Source: Candidatus Hodarchaeota archaeon
Lineage (GTDB): Archaea; Asgardarchaeota; Lokiarchaeia; Sigyniarchaeales; SOKP01
DNA: 64,000 nt
NCBI GenBank assembly: GCA_048886685.1
Contig: JBHLKM010000001.1
Location: forward strand, 288,001 to 352,000
Direction of reading: 5' to 3'
In this document: in pieces, positions 1 through 11,121 of the stretch
How the letters are laid out: the number at the start of each line of letters is the position of its first letter
Numbering within the stretch: position 1 is the first letter of the stretch
Translations under genes and position numbers: made by a program
The notes under the pieces: generated by a model
The model's database searches: none
Told to the model about the DNA's origin: nothing
Seen by the model: the letters and a program-made list of their open reading frames with translations, nothing else

Positions 1-329
1 TCATCGTAATGATATTTACATAGAGCACAGTTTGAATCTCGAACTCTAACTATGTTCTCAGCTTCACTTAATTCGATTGAAGGAGAGCTGTTCAATACTT
101 TTTGATAAATAGTTGTAATAACATCTTTTAAATTAGAAACATTGACCGTATCCGTAGGTTTCCAGTATTTCATATAGGTTTTAGCTATGTTTTTTCCCAT
201 CTTCCTTAATCTTTCTTTTAAATCGGTAAGTCCATTTCTCTCCATAAATGTTGCTAAGATGTGAATGCTATTGCGCATTTGATTCATGGTTGCATCTGTT
301 TGTACCAGATCTTTCCTCGAAAAATTCAT
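1..329 (-). CDS. Partial hypothetical protein, V4R/Bet3-like fold candidate; runs off the window edge
   Basis: Not in the ORF track. Hand translation from ATG at 329 gives MNFSRKDLVQTDATMNQMRNSIHILATFMERNGLTDLKERLRKMGKNIAKTYMKYWKP...IVRVRDSNCALCKYHYD, open to the edge. The 'LRKMGKNIA' helix and CxxC resemble V4R-like proteins. Confidence 0.6.
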   Translation of the reverse strand, partial: MNFSRKDLVQTDATMNQMRNSIHILATFMERNGLTDLKERLRKMGKNIAKTYMKYWKPTDTVNVSNLKDVITTIYQKVLNSSPSIELSEAENIVRVRDSNCALCKYHYD

Positions 330-561
330 AGTTCTATTTTACACTCTCAAAGTAATTTAAATATTGAAAATCTTCATTAAATAAAAAATTTTTAATCTGA
401 TTAACAGATTATTCGTATGATTTTCAAATATTTCTTGATAATTCAATTAAGAAATTAATACCAGCTCTCAATAATAAAAGATCCATAGAATTATTAAATT
501 GACTGCTTAGATTTGCGATAACTTAAAAAAAGTAAGATAAATAAGAATTTCTTAAAAAAAG

Positions 562-948
562 TTACATTTGGGAGATAATCTGTCTCATAATTTGCTCTCC
601 CGCGGCCCCAACCATCAATCCGTTCCGTACAAGCAACTGACCTTGAATCTCTATTGGGTGATTTAAGAGTTCACCGTTTTTGAAAAACAATAAGGTTGGA
701 ATGGCTGTTATACCAAACATCTCACCGAGAGGCCTATTCCTGTCCAAATCCTCTTTTAATAATTTGATAAGACCTTCACTTTTCAGTTTTTCTAATATTG
801 GACTTAAAAATTTGCAAGGGCCGCACCATTGCTGTTTGAGTGAGGAATTCACTCAAATTTCAGTGTAGACATCTACGATGACTTTGCCCTCTTTCATATC
901 GTCTGTAATTTCAAGTCCAAATTTTTTTAATTCTTCGATATTTATCAT
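562..948 (-). CDS. trxA: Thioredoxin, split by a predicted 30-nt intron: exon 1 948..859, exon 2 828..562, 118 aa after splicing
   Basis: ATG at 948 gives MINIEELKKFGLEITDDMKEGKVIVDVYTE, then I*VNSSLKQQ, then WCGPCKFLSPIL...GITAIPTLLFFKNG in the same frame. The WCGPC and cis-Pro (IPT) motifs are intact. The track ORF (562..852) lacks the strand that precedes the active site. Confidence 0.85.
829..858 (-). other. Predicted bulge-helix-bulge-type intron in the thioredoxin mRNA (30 nt)
   Basis: RNA reads ACUG-AA^A-UUUGAGUGA-AUUCC-UCACUCAAA-CAGC-AA^U-GG. It has a perfect 9-bp stem, a 4-nt central helix (3 pairs plus A.C) and two 3-nt bulges, and contains an in-frame UGA. Excision restores YTE|WCGPC. 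Confidence 0.75.
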
Positions 949-1035
949 ATTAGATACAATTTTGTAGTTTAAGGTATTTTTATTGTATTGTGATATAGTT
1001 GGGGGAATAAATATTTAATTGCTTTTATTAATTTC

Positions 1036-1439
1036 ATTTACAAATTAAAAATCAGATCGAGTGGAAACTGACGAAAACCATATGGAAAAGGAAAGATTAC
1101 ATGGAATACAAAACCACCATATGGTCAAAAATGGGGGTCATTTGAAGTTCAAGCCAATGGAGGTCATGCAGTCAGTGTTGGATCATATATCATCCCTGGT
1201 GTAAATTTCTAAATCTGTATTAAAGCATCAATGAATCAGAGTGATTTTATAGCTATATCCTCAAAATATGAAGCTCCAAATATTACCATAATAAGAGGAA
1301 ATAATGAAATCAGATGTAATTACATATGTTATTAAACAGATGGAAAAAAATACAAATTCTGACACAATTAAGAGATGTAATTTGAATATATTTTTCTTAA
1401 TTTTATTCATGGAATATGAATTATTTACAAATTAAAAAT
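1036..1439. repeat. 17-bp perfect direct repeat ATTTACAAATTAAAAAT at 1036..1052 and 1423..1439
   Basis: Read directly from the sequence; the two copies bracket the pseudogene fragment. Confidence 0.7.
1053..1335 (+). pseudogene. Degraded fragment of a surface-protein domain (DNRLRE/CBM96-like)
   Basis: One frame reads GKGKITWNTKPPYGQKWGSFEVQANGGHAVSVGSYIIPGVNF*ICIKASMNQSDFIAISSKYEAPNITII, with an internal stop and no start. ITWNxKP is typical of DNRLRE domains (from recall). Confidence 0.4.
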
Positions 1440-1573
1440 GGAATGGCACACAAATTAATAAATAACTATATTAATGATTAGGGAATAGTATTAAACTTGA
1501 AGAAAAGAATAAAATCCTTATGTTGAGATTGAGAAAGATAAGGATATTAATTTAGAAAATTAAAGCAAATTTT

Positions 1574-2047
1574 ATGAAGATTATTACATATGGTTGGAGT
1601 TTAAAGTGGAAGGCTCCGATAATAGTGAAAAAGGAAATTGATCTGAAATGCGAGGGTGAGGGATGTGAAGATAATCCTTTTGTCATTAAGCCATCAAGCA
1701 TGCTACCGAGCTATTTTGAAATACATAATTCTGAGTATTACGTAGATATTCAAAATTGTGATCTTGAATCAATTGACTTGAAACATTGCAGGAATGTTAC
1801 TTTTAAAGACTGTAAATTAAAAAGGAGTAAATTAGAGGGGTGTTCGATTATCAGATATTTAAATTCAAATATATATGGTAATTTAACTTTACTTTCCTGT
1901 AATGAAGTAAAAATCGAGGAATGTATAATTAATAAGTTGAAATTTAAGAGCTCAAATTCAAATCTAGTTAAAAATTGCTCAATTAACACTATCAAGAAAA
2001 TTAGAAGTAAAAATAATATTTTTGAAGAAATTATTAATTCCAAATAG
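1574..2047 (+). CDS. Small right-handed parallel beta-helix repeat protein (paralog 1)
   Basis: GxGxExNPFVI cap motif followed by Cys-containing ~21-22 aa repeats (IQNCDL..IDLKHCRNVTFKDCKL). Confidence 0.7.
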   Translation: MKIITYGWSLKWKAPIIVKKEIDLKCEGEGCEDNPFVIKPSSMLPSYFEIHNSEYYVDIQNCDLESIDLKHCRNVTFKDCKLKRSKLEGCSIIRYLNSNIYGNLTLLSCNEVKIEECIINKLKFKSSNSNLVKNCSINTIKKIRSKNNIFEEIINSK

Positions 2048-2084
2048 TGATTTAACCCAAAAAAATTGAAAACTTGATAATTCT

Positions 2085-2543
2085 ATGAAGCTAATTGTAT
2101 ATGAAGCAAATTTGAAATGGAGATTTCCGACAGTAGATTCAAAATATATTGATTTTGACTGTCCTGGTACAGGGATCGAAAGTGATCCATATATTATTGA
2201 ACCTTCAAAAGCTCTTCCAGGCAATTTTGGGCCCTTTAATTCCAAAGAATTCATTAGAATTCAAAATTGTCGACTCGCTCAACTAAATATAGAATCTTGT
2301 CAGAATATAGAATTTGAGAATAACAAGATTAAAGGGATCCAATTAAATAAATGCTCTGACTGTTCCTTAGTAAATACTGAAGTAGAATTATTAAGTTTAG
2401 AGAGTTGTCAGAACATTAAGATTGCAGATTGCATAGTCGATAGATTAAGACTTTATCATTCTGGGTCAAATAGTTTTAAGAATTGCATTATTAAGTATAG
2501 AAAGACGATAAAAAGCAAGGAAAATATTTTTGAAAATATTTAA
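2085..2543 (+). CDS. Small right-handed parallel beta-helix repeat protein (paralog 2)
   Basis: GTGIESDPYII cap and similar repeats. It aligns end to end with 1574..2047 (LKW, IEPS/IKPS, IQNC, SKxNIFE). Confidence 0.7.
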   Translation: MKLIVYEANLKWRFPTVDSKYIDFDCPGTGIESDPYIIEPSKALPGNFGPFNSKEFIRIQNCRLAQLNIESCQNIEFENNKIKGIQLNKCSDCSLVNTEVELLSLESCQNIKIADCIVDRLRLYHSGSNSFKNCIIKYRKTIKSKENIFENI

Positions 2544-2618
2544 ATTCCTGCACAAAAGTCTAAAACGAGAGGAGATAACTTTTTTGTTAAGGGGGACTTA
2601 ATCTTTTCTTATTTATTG

Positions 2619-3254
2619 TTATATAGGAGTTATCCTTAAAATCAGCGACTCATTCCTGGCGAATAATTCGACATCACATTGTTTTTGGTTATGTAATAAT
2701 TCACTGAAGTAATTTCCCCAGAAGTCACTGTATCTTTTGCTATGAAAGTCATGATAAAACGACATTTGATAAGTGCCCTTGCTTCCTACTTCAATATCTA
2801 TTTTATAGAAATAATTAGCGCTTAGCCATACATTTTTAATAGCGTCCAGAAGCTCCCCTATAGACATCTCGACAATATTTTCGTTTTTATACCATTCTAT
2901 AACATCGATTGCTATATTTTCAGTAAGGGCTTTCTTGTGGTCTCCAGAAATATAAGAGAGATATGTTTTTTTTCCAACTAATACCATGTTTAGTTCATTT
3001 CTTGCTCTATTCCAAATATTCTGTAAATCACTTTTTTCAGGAAAATAGTATTGATCAAGTAATTCTAATGCTCTCTCAATTACTTTAGATTTATTTCCAA
3101 AAATTTTGTTTTGATCTTTATCCTTTAAATCAGCATATTTTTCAAGTAGTCCATTTGCTTTTTCAGAAATAGTAGTATGAATGGTTAATTTCTTCTGCTT
3201 TTCAGTTTTATTATTGTTCAATTCTTTTTTCTCCGTTTTGTATATAATTATCAA
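2619..3254 (-). CDS. Putative transcriptional regulator (N-terminal ribbon-helix-helix-like region, C-terminal V4R-like domain); probable start TTG at 3221
   Basis: TIHTTISEKANGLLEKY...NKSKVIERALELL follows a strand-helix-helix pattern. The gene is divergent from the 3437..5631 operon. GGAG precedes the TTG at 3221. Confidence 0.5.
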   Translation of the reverse strand: MIIIYKTEKKELNNNKTEKQKKLTIHTTISEKANGLLEKYADLKDKDQNKIFGNKSKVIERALELLDQYYFPEKSDLQNIWNRARNELNMVLVGKKTYLSYISGDHKKALTENIAIDVIEWYKNENIVEMSIGELLDAIKNVWLSANYFYKIDIEVGSKGTYQMSFYHDFHSKRYSDFWGNYFSELLHNQKQCDVELFARNESLILRITPI

Positions 3255-3304
3255 ATATTATATTTAATTCTATGTTCATATATTTTTCGATTTTTATATA
3301 TTAA

Positions 3305-3390
3305 TGTTGTGATTCTTGTTCATTTTCTGTGTGATCATGTTTATAGATGACCTTTCTGAATGACCACAAAGCTTAGATATGTGACCATGA
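3305..3390. promoter_or_regulatory. Cluster of TGA(C/T)C direct repeats in a divergent promoter region; candidate operator
   Basis: GTGATCAT at 3331, ATGACCTT at 3347, ATGACCAC at 3360, GTGACCAT at 3381, all in an otherwise AT-rich spacer. Confidence 0.35.
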
Positions 3391-3436
3391 TATTATTCAA
3401 GTGATGAAATAAAAAAAAGAAGAGGTGTAAATAAAA

Positions 3437-4330
3437 ATGAGAAAAAGAAGAGCCTTTCTAGGTCTTATTGCGTTATTTCTACCATTTATTTTAATTCTCA
3501 ACACAAACATATACAATGTAGAAAGGAGTTCACAGAATTTACTTGTAATATCTGATGATCTAATATATCATGTCCAGAACTATGTAGTTGCTTTAGATAT
3601 TGATGAACTTGATATTCAAGCACAAATCAATATAACATATAATGTTCTTAGTGGGATTAAACAAGATGGTTTTAAAAGATTTATAATTCCAAAACATTCA
3701 AATGGGGAAATTTTAACAATTAAAGTCTATGATGATGAAGGTCTTAATTTGGCTTGGAATTATAGGGAATTTGAAGGAAGAGATGGTAACCACTATAAAG
3801 AAATTTCTTTTCAGCATCCAGGATTTACCGGGATAAAAACAGTTTCAATCAATTTTAAAATGAAAAATTGGATTGTAGAACGCCAATCTGGTACTCAAAT
3901 TCAACTAGGAAATATAGGAACTTTCTCAATAAGCGTAAAACGAGCAGAATATATTATTATCTTTCCTGTTAATTATGAATTAGAGGAAATAAAATCTTCA
4001 GCGTCAGGAATAGAATTATTTGATGAACTTAATAACCGTTTGAGGTACTACTTCATACAATATGAGCCAATTTCAAATGATCTTAGTTTTACATGTTCAC
4101 CTCATATTACAAACAACCCTCCTTTAGAAGAAGTTAATTTAATAGACTCTCGAATCATATTAGTTACAGTTGCATTAGTAATAGTCTTTTCTTTTATGTT
4201 TTTTATAATTTATGCTGTAATAAAATCAGATCGAGAGTGGAGTGGAGGTGTTGGTTGTGGTGGATGTGGAGGGGGAGGTGGTTGCGGCGGATGTGGAGGG
4301 GGAGGTGGTTGCGGCGGATGTGGAGGTTAA
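3437..4330 (+). CDS. Membrane protein: N-terminal signal/TM, extracellular beta-rich domain, C-terminal TM and Cys/Gly tail
   Basis: MRKRR plus a hydrophobic stretch; second TM IILVTVALVIVFSFMFFIIYAVI; tail GVGCGGCGGGGGCGGCGGGGGCGGCGG. SD-like GAGGTG upstream. Confidence 0.8.
   Translation: MRKRRAFLGLIALFLPFILILNTNIYNVERSSQNLLVISDDLIYHVQNYVVALDIDELDIQAQINITYNVLSGIKQDGFKRFIIPKHSNGEILTIKVYDDEGLNLAWNYREFEGRDGNHYKEISFQHPGFTGIKTVSINFKMKNWIVERQSGTQIQLGNIGTFSISVKRAEYIIIFPVNYELEEIKSSASGIELFDELNNRLRYYFIQYEPISNDLSFTCSPHITNNPPLEEVNLIDSRIILVTVALVIVFSFMFFIIYAVIKSDREWSGGVGCGGCGGGGGCGGCGGGGGCGGCGG
4253..4327 (+). repeat. 27-bp tandem repeat encoding CGGCGGGGG units
   Basis: GGATGTGGAGGGGGAGGTGGTTGCGGC occurs exactly at 4262..4288 and 4289..4315, with partial copies on both sides. 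Confidence 0.95.
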
Positions 4331-4361
4331 GAACAAAATTTGAATATTAAATGATTAAAAG

Positions 4362-5414
4362 ATGAAAGAAATGAGGAGAAAGGTAAAAAACTCGAATTTA
4401 AGAATGTGGAATTTTTTTTTGCAACTCCATATTACAGAGAAATGTAATTTAAAATGTATCCATTGCTATGAGGGGAAGTCACCAAGAAAGGACACTAATT
4501 TATTAACATCTAAAGAGATTTTTGATTTATTAGATGAGTATAATGATTTTCTACGTGTTCTCAAAGCAAAAGGAACTGTATATTTTACTGGTGGAGAACC
4601 GATTCTTGATAGCAATCTTTCTAGCTATATCTCTAAAGCTTCAAAATTAGGTATGCATACTATGGTTTTATCTAATGGAACATTGATAAATAATTCAAAA
4701 GCTAAAGAGTTATACAAAGTTGGAACCAACTTTGTTCAAATTAGTATTGATGGCCTGGAAAAAACACATGACTACATCCGAGGACTTGGTTCGTTTCAAA
4801 AAGCAACTGAAGGATTAGAAAATTGCTTTAAAGTTGGATTAAATACTACAGTGATGACTACTCTGAGCAAATTAAATGCTGATGAAATAGAGGGAATAAT
4901 ACTTCATTGTATTGAACACAATGTTTCTCGAATAGCGTTTGGGAGATTAGTTCCTGTTGGAAATGGAGTCGAATTACTCAGTCAAATTTTCACTAAGTCA
5001 GAAACATTGAAACTATTTAAAACAATTAAGGATTTGAAGAGAAAATACGAAAATCATATAGATTTTGCTTTTCACGATCCTCTTTGGACAAGTTATTTGA
5101 ATATAAAAAGTACCAGTGGTTGTAGCGTAGGTAAGAGAGGTTTATGTATTGTAGAAAATGGAGATATTATGCCATGTCGTAGGATGGATTTAGTTATAGG
5201 AAATATTAGAAATGATGCCCTGCTTGATATTTGGAACTCAAATTATCTTAGACAATTTCTTAATAGAAATAAATATGGTGGGAAATGTAGAAAATGTGAA
5301 AGATTGACTCGTTGTGGAGGGTGCCGGGCTATTGCTAAAGCTATTAATGGTAATGAATTCGGAGAAGATCCTCAATGTTTTCTAAGAACTAAGGAAATTA
5401 GAATGAATAATTAA
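4362..5414 (+). CDS. Radical SAM protein with C-terminal SPASM domain
   Basis: CNLKCIHC (CxxxCxxC), TGGEP and QISIDG; SPASM motifs GCSVG..ENGDIMPC..IGNI..CRKC....CGGC..DPQC. Confidence 0.92.
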   Translation: MKEMRRKVKNSNLRMWNFFLQLHITEKCNLKCIHCYEGKSPRKDTNLLTSKEIFDLLDEYNDFLRVLKAKGTVYFTGGEPILDSNLSSYISKASKLGMHTMVLSNGTLINNSKAKELYKVGTNFVQISIDGLEKTHDYIRGLGSFQKATEGLENCFKVGLNTTVMTTLSKLNADEIEGIILHCIEHNVSRIAFGRLVPVGNGVELLSQIFTKSETLKLFKTIKDLKRKYENHIDFAFHDPLWTSYLNIKSTSGCSVGKRGLCIVENGDIMPCRRMDLVIGNIRNDALLDIWNSNYLRQFLNRNKYGGKCRKCERLTRCGGCRAIAKAINGNEFGEDPQCFLRTKEIRMNN

Positions 5415-5451
5415 AAGAATTACTGAAATAAAATAAGGTGAATTTATTAAT

Positions 5452-5631
5452 ATGTCTTTCATAAACAAGAAAAGAATAGTTGTAAACTTAATAATATGGG
5501 CTAGTTGTACTTCCATTCTTGGATTTTTCGGAATTTTTTTTGGTTTTGACATAATTTTACTATGCATTATCTTAATGTTATGCGGAATGTCTGTACCATT
5601 TATTATTGCCATATCTTTAAGAAATTTTTAA
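5452..5631 (+). CDS. Small two-TM membrane protein (59 aa), absent from the ORF track
   Basis: Hand translation: MSFINKKRIVVNLIIWASCTSILGFFGIFFGFDIILLCIILMLCGMSVPFIIAISLRNF*. AAGGTGA lies upstream, and it is co-oriented with the radical SAM gene. Confidence 0.55.
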   Translation: MSFINKKRIVVNLIIWASCTSILGFFGIFFGFDIILLCIILMLCGMSVPFIIAISLRNF

Positions 5632-5869
5632 TGAGGAGCTATTAGTAATCTCTCACTTTGATGGTTATGAAATTCTTTAGAGTTAATTAATTTGTGTAAT
5701 CAATGTATATTATCACAGAATTTATTGATCAGTCCTTTTACTTAAGATCAGGGAGAAGTAAGAAAAAATGGATGTTAATTTCTAATTTAAAAATTACGAA
5801 TTAAAAGAATTAATTTTAAAATCGAAAATAGGTTATACTAAATAATATTAAGATAAACTGATCGTTCAA

Positions 5870-6373
5870 ATGGCAACTATAGATTTTGAGTTCAGAAACC
5901 AAATTCTCGTTAATGATATAGGCAATACATTAGCATATTGTTATCAATGCGCAACCTGTAGTGGTGCGTGTCCAGTAGCACAGGTTACTGAGGGTAAGTA
6001 TAACCCAAGGCGTTTAATTTTAGATGCTTTATTAGGGCTTAAAGAGAAAATATTTGGCCCTGAAAATGCATTTAATATTTGGGGTTGTACGGTATGTGAT
6101 ACATGTGATGAAGTATGCCCACAAAAGGTAGAGCTAACCGAGATTTTTACAATATTAAAGAATTTGAGTGTAGAAAGAGGAGAAGCACCAGCTCACTATA
6201 CAGGTCAAGCTTCAACAATTTTAGAACACGGAAAGGCAATTCCAATGCAACCCGCTATAGAAAGGAGACGTACACAGTTAGGTTTGCCTGAAATAATGGC
6301 TCCTGATGTGAATGAAGTTAAAAAGCTTCTAGAAGCGACAAAGTTACCAGAGAAACTTCCGAAATCGGAATAA
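5870..6373 (+). CDS. hdrC: Heterodisulfide reductase subunit C-like 2x[4Fe-4S] protein
   Basis: CYQCATCSGACP and WGCTVCDTCDEVCPQ motifs, YNPRRL, and length. Confidence 0.85.
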   Translation: MATIDFEFRNQILVNDIGNTLAYCYQCATCSGACPVAQVTEGKYNPRRLILDALLGLKEKIFGPENAFNIWGCTVCDTCDEVCPQKVELTEIFTILKNLSVERGEAPAHYTGQASTILEHGKAIPMQPAIERRRTQLGLPEIMAPDVNEVKKLLEATKLPEKLPKSE

Positions 6374-6510
6374 GCTTATCTTTTTTCTTTTTGATTTTCT
6401 TTTTTTATATGTTTCGTTAGAATTTTATAGTCTCTAAACCTTAATTGTATTATATTCTAAATTTAGAAATGAGAATATTGAAATTTGAATACGATTTGAG
6501 GTAAAAGAAA

Positions 6511-7281
6511 TTGAGAATACCTATAGTTGGGGGAAATTGGAAAATGAATAGAGGTACCCCAAAAGAGTCTAAGGAAATGCTAAAGGATTTAATTTCTCTT
6601 ATAGAAAAGACTAAGAATGTTGAAGTTGTGATTGCGCCCCCTTTTACTAGTTTAATAAGTAGTAGAGAAATTTTGAAAGGTACCAATATAAAATTAGGTG
6701 CTCAAAACATGTATTTTGAAGAAAAGGGAGCATTTACAGGTGAAATATCACCTAGTTTTTTAAAGGATATCGGGGTTGAATATATTATCCTTGGTCATAG
6801 CGAAAGAAGAGATATTTTCAATGAATCAGACGATTTAATTAATAAAAAGTTAAAAAAGGCTTTATCAATGGGTTTAAAGCCCATAGTTTGTATTGGTGAG
6901 CACTTAGAAGAAAGAGAAGAGGGTAAAACAAAGGAAACAATTCAGTATCAAATGAATGAGACTTTTAAAGATCTTGATAAAGATCAGATAACTCGGACTG
7001 TTATAGCGTATGAACCTATTTGGGCAATAGGGACAGGAATAACGGCTACACCAGACCAAGCTGAGGAGATTCATGTTTTTATTCGTGAAATTTTAGCCGA
7101 AAGATTTGATCGAGAAACAGCAGAGATAGTAAGAATTCAATATGGGGGATCAATTAAGCCAAATAATGCTGAAGAATTATTTAGTAAAAAGAATATAGAT
7201 GGTGGTTTGGTTGGAGGGGCGTCTCTTCAAGCAGATTCCTTAGCACATATAATAAAAGCTGCTGAAAAAACAATCAGTTAA
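6511..7281 (+). CDS. tpiA: Triosephosphate isomerase (bacterial/eukaryotic type)
   Basis: GNWKMN, GAFTGE, GHSERR, AYEPIWAIGTG, YGGS and LVGGASL motifs. Confidence 0.98.
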   Translation: MRIPIVGGNWKMNRGTPKESKEMLKDLISLIEKTKNVEVVIAPPFTSLISSREILKGTNIKLGAQNMYFEEKGAFTGEISPSFLKDIGVEYIILGHSERRDIFNESDDLINKKLKKALSMGLKPIVCIGEHLEEREEGKTKETIQYQMNETFKDLDKDQITRTVIAYEPIWAIGTGITATPDQAEEIHVFIREILAERFDRETAEIVRIQYGGSIKPNNAEELFSKKNIDGGLVGGASLQADSLAHIIKAAEKTIS

Positions 7282-7298
7282 AATTCTATCTCAATTTC

Positions 7299-8168
7299 TT
7301 AACTAAGTATATTATTAAATGAAATTGTCAATTTTTGGGGAAATTCCCCAAAATAACTCTGAGGATCAGCGAAAAGCAAATAAAAATATGGTTCGAATAA
7401 AGTTTCTTCGACTGTAGGTCCAACTCCTGATTTAATTATGCAGACTTGAATTTGTTCATCAGAAAAGAACGAAGTCCTATAAATCCATTCAAATGGAGCA
7501 ATATTGGGTATGAATCCAATACGTCTTAAAATTTCATTTATATTTTCCAGAGAATATTTCTTTCCGTAAGCAGTAATAGGGGAAAGATCAAAGGAGGTTA
7601 TACATATACCTAATAAACCGTACTCCTTCATTTCACTTAAAAAGTCATTTGCTGCGCGTTTAATTTCACTTTGATGATCTAAAACAATTTTTCTTGCTTT
7701 TGAATCAGTTAAAATTTCTATAATTTTGCTTTCTTCATTTTCTAAAATCGCGTCAGCCGAGTCAAGTGGCGTTTTGGCATTAATAAAATTATTATAAATT
7801 AGTTTAATTTTTTCTTTAACTGATTTATGCAACAAAAAAGACTCAGTCTGAGCTGTAATCAGTACATCTCCTTCAAATGGGTTTTTATCATTGTTTTTTT
7901 TAGGTTTTTCAGTTGATTTTTTAGCTTTAAATTCTAATCTCTCAATTTTTTTATCAATATTTCGAGCAAATTCGAATAATGCGGATATTAAACCGGCGGT
8001 TAGATCGAATTTTGATTCAGAATCTAATTGTTCGTGAACGGTGGATTGATCCGTCGAAAAATCAAAAAATCTAAGAAAAATTTTTACGCCTTCAGGTACT
8101 GGGTTAATTATTGTATTATAATATGGGAAACCTGTAGTCGAGATGATGCTTAGTTCGTATATTGTCAT
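7299..8168 (-). CDS. Hypothetical protein with longin-like N-terminal domain
   Basis: IYELSIISTTGFPYY and LTAGLISALFEFARNI match the strand and helix pattern of Asgard longin-like domains (from recall). Confidence 0.5.
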   Translation of the reverse strand: MTIYELSIISTTGFPYYNTIINPVPEGVKIFLRFFDFSTDQSTVHEQLDSESKFDLTAGLISALFEFARNIDKKIERLEFKAKKSTEKPKKNNDKNPFEGDVLITAQTESFLLHKSVKEKIKLIYNNFINAKTPLDSADAILENEESKIIEILTDSKARKIVLDHQSEIKRAANDFLSEMKEYGLLGICITSFDLSPITAYGKKYSLENINEILRRIGFIPNIAPFEWIYRTSFFSDEQIQVCIIKSGVGPTVEETLFEPYFYLLFADPQSYFGEFPQKLTISFNNILS

Positions 8169-8331
8169 ATGTATTAAGGGCCCCAGTAAATTTGCTTTGA
8201 AATTAATTTAACCCATTCTTTAATTAGATTTAATGTTTTCTCAATAAAAATAATTTTTTTAATCTTAAGTTAATAAAATACAACAAAAAATAACGATTTT
8301 AAAAGAAAATTAAAAGGAATTATATAATTTC

Positions 8332-11121
8332 TTAATTAATAACAATAGCAGGTTTACCTGGGAGAGATTGTGCTGCTTTTGGTTCTTCTGAATCTTTTTC
8401 AAACATAATATTAACCGCACATTGATACTTTTTTTCAATAAGAGGTTTAATATCATCGAAAAACTGATATTCATCTTTAGATGAAATTGTATATTTAGGA
8501 TATTTTCCAACGTTCTTTATTATTCTGCCCACAATTTTACCAATTTGTTTACTATGCGTCTTGTTCTCATCATCTTGCATTAATTTTTTCATAATTTCTC
8601 CTTGATTCTTAGTTTCTTCTATTATTGACATTAATGATTTATAAAATTTCAACTTCCAATTATCAGCAATAATTAGTGAGATAGATTTTAATTCCTCTTT
8701 TTTCATTACTGTTTTTATCTTATTGAGATCTTCTAAGATATTATTCATTAATTTCCATTTATAATCTGATTCTTGATTGAGAAGTTTTTCATTATAGGTT
8801 GGCCATTTCGCCAAACTCAAATATCCCTCTTTATCTATAGATTCCCAGATTTCCTCTGTCATATGAGGTGCTATTGGATGAAGCAATAAAACCAACGTTT
8901 TTTTACATTCTTCGAAAATTTCTTTATTTACACCCTCAGCTTTATATTTACCAAATTCTGAAGTGAATTGTATTAAATTATTAACGGCATTTCTAATTGC
9001 GATTTTATTCATATTTTCTGTGAATTCTTTAATGGTTTTATTCAAATAATACCGGATTAATGTATCTCGTATATTTATATCATCTCTTATAGTATCTGGG
9101 GAGTCATTTAACAACATAAATGTATTCTTAATGAATCTGTGAGCATAGTCAACACCCTCTTCAGACCATTCTAATCCTGACGATGGACTTGCTCCAAATA
9201 GTATAAAAAATCTTGCAGCGTCTGCCCCGTACTTTTCAATAATTTCTCCAGGATTTACAGTATTTCCATAACTTTTACTCATCTTTACTGACTTTTGAAT
9301 AAGATCTGTATTACCACATATTTTACATTTCATTTGGGCTAAATCGGCTTTCATGAGAAACGCATTACAGTTAGGACAATAAGGATGCAGTTTATTTATC
9401 ATTCCTTGGGTCAACAATGCCTGAAATGGTTCATCAAATTTGTGAAGTCCTAAATCTCTCGCTACTTTTGTAAAAAATCTAGCGTATATTAAGTGCATAA
9501 CAGCATGCTCTATACCCCCAATATATTGATCTACGTTACCCCAATAATTAATGATATCTTTGCTATAAGGAATATTTGCTTCAACGGAGGGTGGATCACA
9601 AAATGCAAAGAAATACCAAGAACTATCAACAAATGTGTCCATAGTATCAGTTTCGCGTTTTGCATTTTTGCCACATGTAGGACATTTTGTATTGAGAAAA
9701 CTTTCGCTTGTTTCTAGTGGATTACCTACTTTAGCAAAACTAACATCTTTAGGTAAATATACAGGTAAATCTTCATATGGTACAGGAACCATACCACACT
9801 TATCGCAATATACTACGGGAATCGGGCAACCCCAATAACGTTGACGTGAAATCCCCCAATCTCTCAGCTTATAATTTATTGTGGCAGATCCCATATTATT
9901 TTGATTTAATTTATCAGTTATCGCATCAATAGCAGAGCGATTTTCCATACCACTAAATTCTTCTGAATTTACAAGAACTCCATCACCTTCATAGGCTCGA
10001 GTCATCTTAGTTACGTTCAACTCATAGTCATGTGGCTGAATTACTATCCTTATTGGAATCTCATATTCAGTTGCAAACTCAAAATCTCTTTGGTCATGTG
10101 CAGGGACAGCCATAACAGCACCTGCTCCATATTCATAAATAACGAAATTGCCTATATATATAGGTATTTCTTCATTGTTTATTGGATTAATAGCACTTTT
10201 TCCAATGAACATACCTTTTTTCTCTATTTCAATATCGGTTCTTTCAAATCTATCTTGATGCATTACTTCATCATATAATTTCTCAAAGCCTTTCTCATAT
10301 TCCGTACCATTCATCCACTCACGGACCCATGGATGTTCTGGGGCAAAAACCATAAATGTTACTCCATAAAGTGTATCAGGTCTCGTAGTAAATATATCAA
10401 TAGTCCTTTTTTCACCTACAATTGGGAATTTTATAATAGTACCTTCCGATTTTCCAATCCAATTTCGTTGCATTATCTTCACTTTTTCAGGCCAATCAAC
10501 GATATTTAGCCCTTCGAGCAATTCTTCCGCATATTCTCGTATTTTAAAAAACCATTGAGATAAGAACTTTTGATCAACTACTGAATTGCACCTCCAGCAT
10601 CTTCCTCCTTGGGCCTGCTCGTTAGCTAAGACTGTGGCACACTTCGGACACCAATTAACGTAACTCTCTTGCTTATACGCTAATCCCTTCTCTAACATCT
10701 GCAAGAAAAACCATTGATCCCATTTATAGAAGTTAGGGTTGTGACTACATATTTCTCTTGTCCAATCATATGAGAGACCTATCCTTTTTTGTTGATTTTT
10801 CATTGTTTCTATATTCTTATTAGTCCATTCTTCTGGATTAGCACCATGATCTATCGCTGCATTTTCTGCAGGCATTCCGAACGAATCATAACCCATTGGA
10901 TAGATGACATTAAATCCATTCATTCTTTTAAATCTAGCATAGCAATCACCAATCGTGTAATTTCTAAGATGACCCATATGGAGTTTACCAGAAGGATATG
11001 GATACATTTCTAATACGTAGTATTTTTCCTTTTTCGGATTCACTTTAACTTCAAAAATTTTTTCTTTTTCCCACTTTTCTTGCCATTTCTTTTCTATTTT
11101 TTCTGGGTCATATTCAACCAT
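8332..11121 (-). CDS. leuS: Leucine--tRNA ligase
   Basis: EMYPYPSGKLHMGH, FTTRPDT editing domain, DWGISRQRYWG, YIGGIEHA and KMSKS. Confidence 0.98.
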   Translation of the reverse strand: MVEYDPEKIEKKWQEKWEKEKIFEVKVNPKKEKYYVLEMYPYPSGKLHMGHLRNYTIGDCYARFKRMNGFNVIYPMGYDSFGMPAENAAIDHGANPEEWTNKNIETMKNQQKRIGLSYDWTREICSHNPNFYKWDQWFFLQMLEKGLAYKQESYVNWCPKCATVLANEQAQGGRCWRCNSVVDQKFLSQWFFKIREYAEELLEGLNIVDWPEKVKIMQRNWIGKSEGTIIKFPIVGEKRTIDIFTTRPDTLYGVTFMVFAPEHPWVREWMNGTEYEKGFEKLYDEVMHQDRFERTDIEIEKKGMFIGKSAINPINNEEIPIYIGNFVIYEYGAGAVMAVPAHDQRDFEFATEYEIPIRIVIQPHDYELNVTKMTRAYEGDGVLVNSEEFSGMENRSAIDAITDKLNQNNMGSATINYKLRDWGISRQRYWGCPIPVVYCDKCGMVPVPYEDLPVYLPKDVSFAKVGNPLETSESFLNTKCPTCGKNAKRETDTMDTFVDSSWYFFAFCDPPSVEANIPYSKDIINYWGNVDQYIGGIEHAVMHLIYARFFTKVARDLGLHKFDEPFQALLTQGMINKLHPYCPNCNAFLMKADLAQMKCKICGNTDLIQKSVKMSKSYGNTVNPGEIIEKYGADAARFFILFGASPSSGLEWSEEGVDYAHRFIKNTFMLLNDSPDTIRDDINIRDTLIRYYLNKTIKEFTENMNKIAIRNAVNNLIQFTSEFGKYKAEGVNKEIFEECKKTLVLLLHPIAPHMTEEIWESIDKEGYLSLAKWPTYNEKLLNQESDYKWKLMNNILEDLNKIKTVMKKEELKSISLIIADNWKLKFYKSLMSIIEETKNQGEIMKKLMQDDENKTHSKQIGKIVGRIIKNVGKYPKYTISSKDEYQFFDDIKPLIEKKYQCAVNIMFEKDSEEPKAAQSLPGKPAIVIN

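What the first reader, a model, noticed from the sequence alone, without database searches (positions are those of the whole stretch)
3437..5631. Radical SAM/SPASM enzyme paired with a membrane protein bearing a six-Cys (CGGCGGGGG)n tail
Seen: a compact co-oriented unit of three genes with a divergent regulator. The first is a surface protein whose short post-TM tail is almost only Gly and Cys (three CGGC motifs built by a 27-bp tandem repeat). A radical SAM/SPASM gene follows 31 nt later, then a 59-aa two-TM protein. Established: SPASM enzymes often modify Cys-rich peptides encoded next to them (sactipeptide and ranthipeptide thioethers), and Cys/Gly tails are known on TIGR04222-type membrane proteins found near other peptide-modifying enzymes. 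Inference: the tail is a membrane-tethered RiPP-like substrate or metal-binding module matured by this enzyme, a system I do not recognise as described in archaea. No free precursor peptide is visible nearby.
Basis: partly seen in the sequence, partly recalled or inferred. Interest (0 to 1): 0.75.

Follow-up and report, generated by a model that had tools for sequence, protein, structure and literature searches.

The report
Radical-SAM enzyme for a Cys-Gly protein tail
An Asgard archaeon carries a small inserted gene island in which a membrane protein ending in six cysteines spaced by glycines is encoded just before its own radical-SAM iron-sulfur enzyme; the same pair recurs across many anaerobic archaea and bacteria, so the enzyme very probably modifies that tail chemically, and I found no description of such a protein modification.

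Summary

**What is in the window**
- Gene 3437-4330 encodes a 297-aa protein: signal anchor, all-beta ectodomain, one TM helix, then the tail CGGCGGGGGCGGCGGGGGCGGCGG. The tail is built by a 27-bp tandem repeat.
- A radical SAM/SPASM gene (4362-5414) starts 31 nt later.
- This is the only Cys/Gly tail in the 4.4-Mb genome.

**Evidence for a functional pair**
- In 398 Asgard genomes the enzyme occurs in 11. All 10 with upstream DNA have a Cys/Gly tail ending 2-120 nt before it.
- In a tree of 83 related enzymes, 26 of 27 tail-linked ones form one clade from Asgard archaea to Nitrospirota, Chloroflexota and Planctomycetota. Every member of that clade is tail-linked.
- Sister enzymes sit beside short Cys-rich peptide ORFs.
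- Two metagenomic proteins fuse membrane protein, tail and enzyme.
- No NCBIfam cut-off is passed. The best match is the ACGX-system rSAM, 191 of 400 bits.

- Only the two genes are conserved. The 59-aa ORF is not, and the divergent regulator is conserved only in close relatives.
- The pair lies on a 4.7-kb island that 50 of 51 same-genus genomes lack.

The closest published idea is MNIO enzymes acting on TIGR04222 tails. The scan has found this pairing before on other DNA, and those notes agree with this analysis.

The parts
1072..5765 (.). About 4.7-kb accessory island. It holds two beta-helix-like ORFs, the putative regulator, the tail protein, the rSAM/SPASM enzyme and the 59-aa ORF.
   Evidence: In same-genus genomes, window 1-1071 and 5766-9000 abut. 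The gap is 14 nt in G190 and 42-46 nt in G188 and G205. The island is 29.5% G+C and its flanks 31.6%.
2619..3254 (-). Divergent 211-aa ORF: putative ribbon-helix-helix regulator with a V4R/H-NOX-like C-terminal domain.
   Evidence: It is conserved divergently next to the tail gene in L021, L022 and L023 but not in L020. Pfam, NCBIfam and PDB sequence searches give no hit. The ESM Atlas gives 0.93 to AF_0136_C / RHH_1 archaeal proteins. The AF2 model has pLDDT 69, and Foldseek gives only weak H-NOX/Bet3/V4R-type matches at E 3e-3 to 5e-2. Paralogues occur elsewhere in genus genomes.
3437..4330 (+). Tail protein, 297 aa, a distant DUF2207-type membrane protein. It has an N-terminal signal anchor (residues 3-26), an all-beta ectodomain (residues 42-221), a TM helix (about 232-269) and a Cys/Gly tail.
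   Evidence: ORF. All homologues carry Cys/Gly tails. The AF2 model has pLDDT 77, with the core above 90. The fold resembles the N-terminal beta domain of M1 aminopeptidase/LTA4H (E 4e-7) and OST1. DUF2207 hits are found in relatives.
4256..4327 (+). Proposed substrate: C-terminal tail CGGCGGGGGCGGCGGGGGCGGCGG (residues 274-297, six Cys in three CGGC motifs), predicted cytoplasmic.
   Evidence: Sequence read. It is disordered in AF2, with pLDDT about 32. Across 103 tail proteins, 88% have exactly two residues after the last Cys and 78% end in CGG; spacer residues are 79% Gly and 16.5% Ser. It is the only such tail in the genome.
4252..4326 (+). 27-bp tandem DNA repeat (2.8 copies, 95% matches) that encodes the repeated CGGCGGGGG unit.
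   Evidence: family D1.
4362..5414 (+). Radical SAM/SPASM enzyme, 350 aa, with no N-terminal RRE domain.
   Evidence: Pfam Radical_SAM covers residues 24-180 and SPASM residues 254-313. The best NCBIfam hit is TIGR04340 rSAM_ACGX at 191.5 bits against a cut-off of 400. The best PDB relatives are SkfB, PqqE, anSME and CteB. It sits in the tail-linked clade.
4443..4466 (+). CX3CX2C radical SAM cluster motif (Cys28, Cys32, Cys35).
   Evidence: These columns are invariant in alignment A2.
5121..5378 (+). SPASM region with seven conserved Cys (254, 272, 309, 312, 318, 321, 339), enough for two auxiliary 4Fe-4S clusters.
5452..5631 (+). 59-aa ORF with two hydrophobic segments. It lies inside the island but is not a conserved part of the system.
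   Evidence: ORF. An AGGTGA motif lies upstream. It has no Pfam or NCBIfam hit and no counterpart in related loci.

Best explanation
This is a two-gene protein-tail maturation system. The membrane protein places a beta-sandwich domain outside the cell and, after its last TM helix, a short disordered (Cys-x2-5)n tail in the cytoplasm. The adjacent, probably co-transcribed, radical SAM/SPASM enzyme binds that tail directly, without an RRE or a leader peptide. It uses 5'-deoxyadenosyl radical chemistry to modify the cysteines or the neighbouring glycines.

The most plausible product is thioether (sactionine-type S-C-alpha) crosslinks or a related Cys-derived structure. The result would be a permanently membrane-anchored modified peptide, for example a metal-binding or redox module, rather than a secreted RiPP.

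- **Shown:** gene anatomy, conserved adjacency, clade structure, fusions and enzyme motifs.
- **Inferred:** that the tail is the substrate, its cytoplasmic location, and the chemistry.
For: 1. **Exclusive adjacency in Asgard genomes.** 11 of 398 genomes have the enzyme at E<=1e-45. All 10 with upstream DNA have a Cys/Gly-tail ORF ending 2-120 nt upstream, some overlapping the enzyme ORF. The genomes holding the tail-protein family are nearly the same set.
2. **Clade structure.** In an IQ-TREE of 83 enzymes, 26 of 27 tail-linked ones form one clade in which every member is tail-linked. The label needs 2 changes against 23 in shuffles. A single origin for all 27 is not rejected (AU p = 0.37).
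3. **Taxonomic breadth.** The clade spans Promethearchaeota, Thor- and Njordarchaeota, Thermoplasmatota, Chloroflexota, Nitrospirota, Planctomycetota, Omnitrophota, Cyanobacteriota, Bacteroidota, Acidobacteriota and others. A high-GC soil contig carries the pair too.
4. **Only these two genes are conserved.** This holds across 24 loci.
5. **Sister enzymes have peptide neighbours.** They sit beside short ORFs with Cys-rich C-termini of CxxC type.
6. **Natural fusions.** P0240 (851 aa) reads body, Cys-rich segment, about 40-aa linker, then enzyme. P0230 is a fragment of the same kind.
7. **The tail is the conserved feature.** 88% of 103 tails have exactly two residues after the last Cys. The body varies: DUF2207-N, DUF2207_C or TIGR04222, in short and long forms.
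8. **The enzyme is intact.** It has CX3CX2C plus seven SPASM Cys. Its nearest solved relatives are peptide or protein modifiers: SkfB, PqqE, anSME and CteB.
9. **One-to-one relation.** The genome has one tail and no MNIO gene.
Against: - There is no biochemical evidence of any kind, and the product is unknown.
- Topology rests on a crude hydropathy count and the positive-inside rule. Some bacterial members show only one TM and no signal peptide, so their tails could face outward.
- The tail offers only Gly or Ser as possible thioether acceptors, unlike characterised sacti- and ranthipeptides.
- CxxC pairs could simply bind metal.
- The enzyme has no RRE, and no leader-like recognition element has been identified.
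- The fusions are single metagenomic gene predictions and could be read-through errors. A search for longer homologues found none.
- Clade support is moderate (SH-aLRT 84), and one tail-linked enzyme (L118) sits outside on a long branch.
Confidence: 0.7

Rival explanations
1. The tail is not a substrate but a partner. It would be a Cys-rich metal- or Fe-S-binding tail that tethers the rSAM/SPASM enzyme to the membrane, or feeds it electrons or clusters. The enzyme would then act on something else in or at the membrane, such as a lipid or a small molecule.
For: - CGGC (CxxC) pairs are classic metal ligands.
- The profile of this enzyme group also matches a lipid-modifying rSAM/SPASM enzyme, GDGT-MAS (7tol), at 71.8 bits.
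- The enzyme has no RRE.
- The fusions fit a docking role as well as a substrate role.
Against: - Sister enzymes pair with short soluble Cys-rich peptides, the usual signature of a substrate.
- The same tail-and-enzyme pair occurs in archaea and bacteria, whose membrane lipids differ.
- No other gene is conserved that could supply a different substrate.
- The best solved relatives are peptide modifiers.
Confidence: 0.15
2. It is a true RiPP pathway. The tail is a core peptide that is modified, then cut off the membrane protein, which would act as a giant leader, and released.
For: - The tail resembles the Cys-rich cores of neighbouring short precursors.
- SPASM enzymes are typical RiPP maturases.
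Against: - No protease or exporter is conserved in 24 loci.
- The tail is predicted to be cytoplasmic and starts only 7-30 residues after the TM helix.
- The ectodomain is well conserved and well folded, which argues that the whole protein is the functional product.
Confidence: 0.08
3. The adjacency is ordinary. The enzyme is a cofactor-biosynthesis rSAM of the AhbC/AhbD/NirJ type, or an anaerobic sulfatase maturase, that merely lies beside an unrelated low-complexity membrane protein.
For: NirJ2, AhbC and AhbD models score 157-164 bits, close behind the top hit. JGI names some distant homologues 'AdoMet-dependent heme synthase'.
Against: - All those scores are far below the cut-offs of 500-650.
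- Adjacency is kept across phyla and in both domains, with a 2-120 nt gap and occasional fusion.
- The pair is gained and lost as a unit.
Confidence: 0.03

Closest known systems
TIGR04222 membrane proteins with Cys-containing Ser/Gly-rich C-terminal tails, proposed as substrates of MNIO (DUF692, PF05114) enzymes (Microb Genom 2025, PMC12452194; read)
   Same: A full-length multi-domain membrane protein with an unstructured Cys/Gly/Ser C-terminal tail is encoded next to a metalloenzyme family known to modify Cys in RiPPs. Some tail proteins in the present enzyme clade pass the TIGR04222 cut-off: L039, L100 and L107 at 57-94 bits against 43.
   Different: - The enzyme here is an oxygen-sensitive radical SAM/SPASM protein, not an MNIO. 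The genome has no PF05114 gene.
- The window protein itself does not match TIGR04222.
- That paper places its tails in the periplasm and finds them mostly in Actinomycetota. Here the tail is predicted cytoplasmic and the hosts are mostly anaerobes, including archaea.
- In that paper 'radical SAM' occurs only twice; the one passage shown is a reference-list entry.
ACGX system (NCBIfam TIGR04340 radical SAM/SPASM protein; by my recollection paired with ACGX-repeat peptides, a computational family without published biochemistry)
   Same: It is the best-scoring curated model for the enzyme (191.5 bits, full length). By my recollection it is likewise an rSAM/SPASM enzyme paired with a repeat of Cys followed by Gly.
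   Different: The score is under half the cut-off of 400. No NCBIfam model matches the tail protein. The substrate here is the tail of a 297-aa membrane protein, not a short peptide.
Sactipeptide and ranthipeptide maturases (SkfB, CteB, AlbA, PapB) and anaerobic sulfatase-maturating enzyme (anSME)
   Same: They share the radical SAM + SPASM architecture with two auxiliary clusters and act on Cys of a ribosomal peptide or protein. SkfB is the best solved relative (127 bits). anSME, like this enzyme, has no RRE and modifies a full-length protein.
   Different: - All NCBIfam scores are far below the cut-offs (PapB 93 of 340, SkfB 97 of 300).
- There is no short leader-bearing precursor, no RRE, no protease and no exporter.
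- The tail has no Asp, Asn, Thr, Met or Phe acceptor and no sulfatase CxPxR motif.

Membership tests
Radical SAM superfamily (PF04055) | CX3CX2C motif ligating the SAM-binding 4Fe-4S cluster, and a Pfam score above the gathering threshold | tested here: met
   Cys28, Cys32 and Cys35 are present and invariant in A2. PF04055 scores 80.6 bits against 29.5.
SPASM subgroup (PF13186) | C-terminal seven-Cys motif for two auxiliary 4Fe-4S clusters | tested here: met
   PF13186 scores 47.6 bits against 21.5. Cys254, 272, 309, 312, 318, 321 and 339 are conserved in A2.
ACGX system rSAM (TIGR04340) | Score at or above the curated cut-off of 400 bits | tested here: not met
   The score is 191.5 bits and 189.3 bits in the genome search. 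Clade relatives score 155-180 bits.
ACGX system | Adjacent short ACGX-repeat peptide | tested here: not met
   The neighbour is a 297-aa membrane protein. No NCBIfam model matches it at E<=0.1.
Haem / haem d1 cofactor rSAMs (AhbC, AhbD, NirJ, NirJ1, NirJ2) | Score above the equivalog cut-offs (500-650 bits) | tested here: not met
   Scores are 124-164 bits.
DUF2207 (PF09972 N-terminal domain) | Pfam match above the gathering score in the tail protein | tested here: inconclusive
   The window protein has no Pfam hit at E<=0.1. Its homologue P0006 (39% identity) carries a precomputed PF09972 hit, and L031 scores 27.5 bits against 24.4. The bodies cluster together by BLASTP in 21 of 24 loci. It is a distant member at best.
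TIGR04222 domain-containing membrane protein | NCBIfam score at or above 43 bits | tested here: not met
   The window protein has no hit. It is met by other tail proteins of the same enzyme clade: L039 at 57, L107 at 64 and L100 at 94 bits.
MNIO-TIGR04222 system (PMC12452194) | MNIO (PF05114) gene next to the tail-protein gene | tested here: not met
   The whole genome has no PF05114 match, while the control genome was detected. No third conserved gene family is found in 24 loci apart from a facultative nucleotidyltransferase.
Classical sacti-/ranthipeptide RiPP cluster | Short leader-bearing precursor, an RRE domain in or beside the maturase, and a protease or exporter | tested here: not met
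   The radical SAM core starts at residue 24, so there is no room for an N-terminal RRE. No short precursor is present in the island. No protease or transporter is conserved.
Tail-linked rSAM/SPASM clade (defined here) | The enzyme falls in the clade whose members all have a Cys/Gly(/Ser)-tailed membrane protein encoded beside them (immediately upstream in all but three; downstream in L054) | tested here: met
   The window enzyme groups with L029, L030 and L111 (SH-aLRT 100) inside the 26-member all-tail clade.

The most novel reading that the evidence does not exclude
Cys/Gly tails on DUF2207/TIGR04222-type membrane proteins are a widespread, membrane-anchored, post-translationally built module, for example a metal-chelating or redox-active one. 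Two unrelated metalloenzymes would mature it: oxygen-dependent MNIO enzymes in aerobes and oxygen-independent radical SAM/SPASM enzymes in anaerobes, including Asgard archaea. The division would parallel FGE versus anSME for sulfatases. The radical SAM route would install a modification not yet seen in any RiPP, on Cys flanked only by Gly and read from a fixed Cys-Gly-Gly carboxy terminus.
Probability: 0.3. Interest if true: 0.8.

Novelty: new variant of a known kind. Interest (0 to 1): 0.65.

Why it matters
Radical SAM/SPASM maturases are known mainly for small secreted peptides. Here the same chemistry appears to be aimed at the tail of a complete membrane protein. The pair is conserved from Asgard archaea to a dozen bacterial phyla, yet no curated model or paper that I could find describes it.

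If confirmed, it would add a new class of enzymatic protein modification and give a function to part of the large DUF2207/TIGR04222 'unknown' families. It would also supply the anaerobic counterpart to the recently proposed MNIO-tail systems.

The substrate is short, repetitive and easy to synthesise, so the hypothesis can be tested directly.

Tried and rejected
The contexts of proteins P0002-P0011 and of the closest enzyme homologue, P0013 (79% identity), could not be fetched. I used the genome search and the search for related loci instead.
- **The metagenome scan** with the tail-protein profile returned only one locus, L119.
- **Fused forms:** a search for longer homologues of the enzyme found none (weak evidence). 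The two fusions came from the representative library.
- **ACGX comparison:** no genuine TIGR04340 member was reachable, since no control genome passes the cut-off. The ACGX clade could therefore not be placed in the tree.
- **The 59-aa ORF** was tested as a third component. It has no homologue in the four nearest loci or any other, so I rejected it as a conserved part.
- **The regulator** had no hit in Pfam, NCBIfam or PDB sequence searches. The fold search gave only weak H-NOX/Bet3/V4R-like matches, so 'regulator' remains a lead.
- **Other partners:** I looked for a conserved protease, transporter or MNIO partner and found none.
- **'The enzyme tracks the tail, not the body'** holds only in part. 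Most bodies are homologous (21 of 24 cluster together); only L100, L107 and L118 fall outside that cluster, and L100 and L107 match TIGR04222.
- **Island edges:** no clear terminal repeats or integrase were found.
Full report
**1. The observation**

The window is AT-rich, about 30% G+C, and comes from an Asgard archaeon whose relatives are labelled Promethearchaeota/Lokiarchaeota.

ORF 3437-4330 (+) encodes 297 aa. Its features, in order:
- a basic N-terminus (MRKRR) and a hydrophobic segment at residues 3-26;
- a long hydrophilic region;
- a second hydrophobic segment at residues 232-266;
- the linker KSDREWSGGVG;
- the tail CGGCGGGGGCGGCGGGGGCGGCGG, with Cys at 274, 277, 283, 286, 292 and 295.

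Tandem Repeats Finder reports a 27-bp unit x2.8 at 4252-4326 with 95% matches. I read the repeat directly. The tail DNA is 67% G+C in a gene that is otherwise 30%.

The next ORF, 4362-5414, starts 31 nt after the stop and is a radical SAM/SPASM protein. Pfam gives Radical_SAM 80.6 bits and SPASM 47.6 bits. It has CX3CX2C at Cys28/32/35 and seven conserved SPASM cysteines.

A 59-aa hydrophobic ORF follows at 5452-5631, and a 211-aa ORF lies divergently at 2619-3254.

A six-frame scan of the whole 4.4-Mb assembly finds no other Cys/Gly tail. The tail protein has no paralogue, and the enzyme's nearest paralogue is only 35% identical.

**2. The tail protein family**

A word-indexed search found 10 relatives, and every one ends in a Cys/Gly tail.

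An exhaustive profile search of 1.8 billion representatives found only 304 proteins at E<=1e-3. Among the 152 sequences examined (the best 150 listed plus P0005 and P0009):
- 74 have an unmistakable Cys tail;
- about 8 more have Cys separated by long Gly runs;
- 6 have Gly/Ser tails without Cys;
- most of the rest are fragments.

Across 103 tails, 88% have exactly two residues after the last Cys and 78% end in CGG. Cys-Cys spacing is mostly 2-5 residues. The spacers are 79% Gly and 16.5% Ser.

The window protein matches no Pfam or NCBIfam model. Relatives do reach DUF2207 (PF09972), DUF2207_C or TIGR04222.

An AlphaFold2 model has mean pLDDT 77, with the core above 90. It shows an all-beta sandwich (residues 42-221), one long TM helix (235-269) and a disordered tail. 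The sandwich resembles the non-catalytic N-terminal domain of M1 aminopeptidases/LTA4H (Foldseek E 4e-7) and also OST1 of the oligosaccharyltransferase.

With a basic N-terminus and two TM segments, the tail is predicted to be cytoplasmic. Close relatives have a Lys/Arg-rich linker after the last TM, which fits that prediction. Long forms of about 500 aa have 4-5 TM segments and a linker of about 100 aa. This topology is an inference from a crude hydropathy scan.

**3. Is the enzyme linked to the tail?**

- **Asgard genomes.** Scanning 398 genomes gave the tail-protein family in 10 and the enzyme at E<=1e-45 in 11. Nine genomes are shared. The other cases are explained by contig ends that fall in or next to the tail. 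In all 10 genomes where DNA upstream of the enzyme exists, an ORF ending in a Cys/Gly tail stops 2-120 nt before the enzyme, or overlaps its longest ORF.
- **Wider scan.** A scan of 185,579 species genomes with the enzyme profile returned the best 80 loci. Twenty-four of these carry such a tail next to the enzyme. It is usually immediately upstream. It is downstream once (L054) and separated by one gene twice (L100, L107).
- **Tree.** In a maximum-likelihood tree of 83 enzymes, 26 of the 27 tail-linked ones form one clade (SH-aLRT 84), and every member of that clade is tail-linked. The label needs 2 changes against a shuffled mean of 23. A single clade of all 27 is not rejected (AU p = 0.37).
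- **Taxa in the clade.** It spans Promethearchaeota, Thor- and Njordarchaeota, Thermoplasmatota, Anaerolineae, Magnetobacterium-type Nitrospirota (tails ending CGGCGGGGD), Planctomycetota, Omnitrophota, Auribacterota, Cyanobacteriota, Riflebacteria, Bacteroidota, Acidobacteriota and Zixibacteria. A high-GC soil metagenome contig shows the same pair.
- **Conserved neighbours.** Clustering all neighbouring ORFs of 24 loci shows that only the enzyme and the tail protein are conserved. A nucleotidyltransferase-domain gene occurs in five loci and a second rSAM/SPASM gene in two. No protease, transporter or MNIO gene is conserved.
- **Sister enzymes.** The nearest enzymes outside the clade sit beside short ORFs (35-74 aa) with Cys-rich C-termini of CxxC type. 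This is the usual look of a RiPP precursor.
- **Fusions.** Two predicted metagenomic proteins are in-frame fusions. P0240 (851 aa) reads long-form body, Cys-rich segment, about 40-residue linker, then rSAM/SPASM domain, which is 36% identical to the window enzyme. P0230 is a fragment of the same kind.

Together these results make chance adjacency untenable. They point to the tail as what the enzyme recognises.

**4. What the enzyme is and is not**

No NCBIfam model is passed. The best is TIGR04340 (rSAM of the ACGX system) at 191.5 bits against a cut-off of 400. NirJ2, AhbC, AhbD and SbtM follow at 148-164 bits against 350-650. Clade relatives and sister clades behave the same way.

Against solved structures, the profile matches SkfB best (127 bits), then PqqE, anSME, CteB and SuiB.

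The radical SAM core begins at residue 24, so there is no N-terminal RRE. In this respect the enzyme is like anSME, which also acts on a full-length protein.

**5. Mechanism proposed**

The enzyme is cytoplasmic and oxygen-sensitive. The tail is short, flexible and held at the inner face of the membrane.

I propose that the enzyme binds the (Cys-x2-5)n tail directly, perhaps reading the fixed Cys-Gly-Gly carboxy terminus. It would then use 5'-deoxyadenosyl radical chemistry, with its two auxiliary clusters, to convert the cysteines.

Thioether formation to a Gly or Ser C-alpha is chemically reasonable, because a glycyl C-alpha radical is stabilised. Nothing here shows that chemistry. The product would stay anchored to the membrane protein.

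Confidence that the tail is the substrate is about 0.7. Confidence in thioethers specifically is much lower.

Rivals are:
- the tail as a metal or Fe-S docking partner, about 0.15;
- a released RiPP, about 0.08;
- coincidence with a cofactor enzyme, about 0.03.

**6. Local context**

BLAST of window 1-9000 against 51 same-genus genomes shows that window 1-1071 (thioredoxin side) and 5766-9000 (HdrC-like gene, triose-phosphate isomerase) are adjacent in those genomes. The gap is 14 nt in G190 and 42-46 nt in G188 and G205.

So about 4.7 kb (1072-5765) is an island particular to this genome. It carries two paralogous beta-helix-like ORFs, the putative regulator, the pair and the 59-aa ORF. Only one same-genus genome (G199) has the enzyme, and there it sits elsewhere, at a contig end. 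The pair is therefore an accessory, patchily distributed module.

The divergent ORF is conserved beside the tail gene in three of four close loci. It resembles archaeal RHH/AF_0136-type proteins in the ESM Atlas (0.93). Its modelled C-terminal domain weakly resembles H-NOX/Bet3/V4R folds. Its paralogues occur elsewhere without the pair. 'Regulator' is plausible but not shown.

The 59-aa ORF has an AGGTGA motif upstream but no relative anywhere.

**7. Comparison with what is known**

The closest published idea is that TIGR04222 membrane proteins with Cys-containing Ser/Gly tails are substrates of MNIO (DUF692) enzymes, mostly in Actinomycetota (PMC12452194). In that paper 'radical SAM' occurs only twice, and the one passage shown is a reference-list entry.

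This genome has no MNIO gene. Full-text searches for DUF2207 with radical SAM, and for TIGR04340, TIGR04341 and ACGX, found nothing relevant.

I therefore class this as a new variant of a known kind: SPASM-type Cys-peptide maturation applied to the tail of a whole membrane protein.

After finishing my own analysis I consulted the scan's notebook. The same pairing has been reported several times on other DNA, with the same closest-known system. Those notes agree with this analysis and were not used as evidence.

**8. Limits**

- There is no experiment.
- The topology prediction is crude.
- The fusions are unverified gene predictions.
- The tree used a quick search with LG+G4.
- The 80 loci are the best-scoring subset of 372 confirmed matches.

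Noticed in passing
window 1072-5765: The whole cassette sits on a 4.7-kb island that is absent from the same site in the other same-genus genomes. There the thioredoxin-side gene and the HdrC-like gene abut, 14-46 nt apart. No integrase or clear terminal repeats were seen.
   Followed up: yes
window 1574-2047 and 2085-2543: Two tandem paralogous ORFs of about 155 aa, with weak pentapeptide/right-handed beta-helix matches, lie inside the island. They are not found next to the pair in other loci.
   Followed up: partly
window 1036-1052 and 1423-1439: A perfect 17-nt direct repeat (ATTTACAAATTAAAAAT) lies at the left edge of the island. By a rough estimate, about 0.02 such pairs are expected by chance in 5 kb of this composition. 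A 15-nt inverted pair at 1448-1462 / 5683-5697 lies near both island ends.
   Followed up: no
L031:2364-3119, L037:3336-4148, L100:4207-4974, L107:3895-4968, L118:396-1190: A ~250-360-aa gene clusters across five tail/rSAM loci, including one Asgard genome; two of the five pass the NTP_transf_2 (PF01909) gathering score and a third falls just below it. In L100 and L107 it lies between the tail gene and the enzyme gene. It is absent from the window.
   Followed up: partly
L032:2309-3310 and L034:2366-3436: A second, more divergent rSAM/SPASM gene lies upstream of the tail-protein gene in a Thermoplasmatota locus and a Magnetominusculus locus.
   Followed up: no
L104:6282-6425, L106:6265-6408, L108:2815-2922, L077:2060-2209, L058:110-334: Sister enzymes without tail proteins have short ORFs beside them with Cys-rich C-termini, for example ...CFGCTNCNCN and ...CKQCSSCHNCR. 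None matches an NCBIfam precursor family. They are possible undescribed RiPP precursors.
   Followed up: partly
P0240 (851 aa) and P0230 (279-aa fragment): These are predicted in-frame fusions of tail protein, Cys-rich segment and rSAM/SPASM enzyme. In them the Cys segment is internal rather than C-terminal.
   Followed up: partly
G278 C193/C393, G326 C64/C24, G130 C192, G199 C195: Several assemblies break at or beside the Cys/Gly tail. It is a GC-rich repeat in AT-rich genomes, so the pair is easily split across contigs and undercounted.
   Followed up: partly
own genome C6:73723-73749 (-): Another ORF of about 250 aa ends in CDDCDCDCD. It is not near the rSAM-like gene on that contig, which lies about 15 kb away.
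   Followed up: no
window 3560-4099 (residues 42-221 of the tail protein): The modelled ectodomain also aligns with yeast OST1/ribophorin I (6ezn_A, E 1e-5). Earlier notes say this genome encodes a ribophorin-like protein elsewhere.
   Followed up: no
G177:C6:6234-6888 and other genus genomes: Paralogues of the divergent putative regulator occur in same-genus genomes that lack the tail/rSAM pair. The closest has 80% nucleotide identity over window 2632-3286.
   Followed up: no
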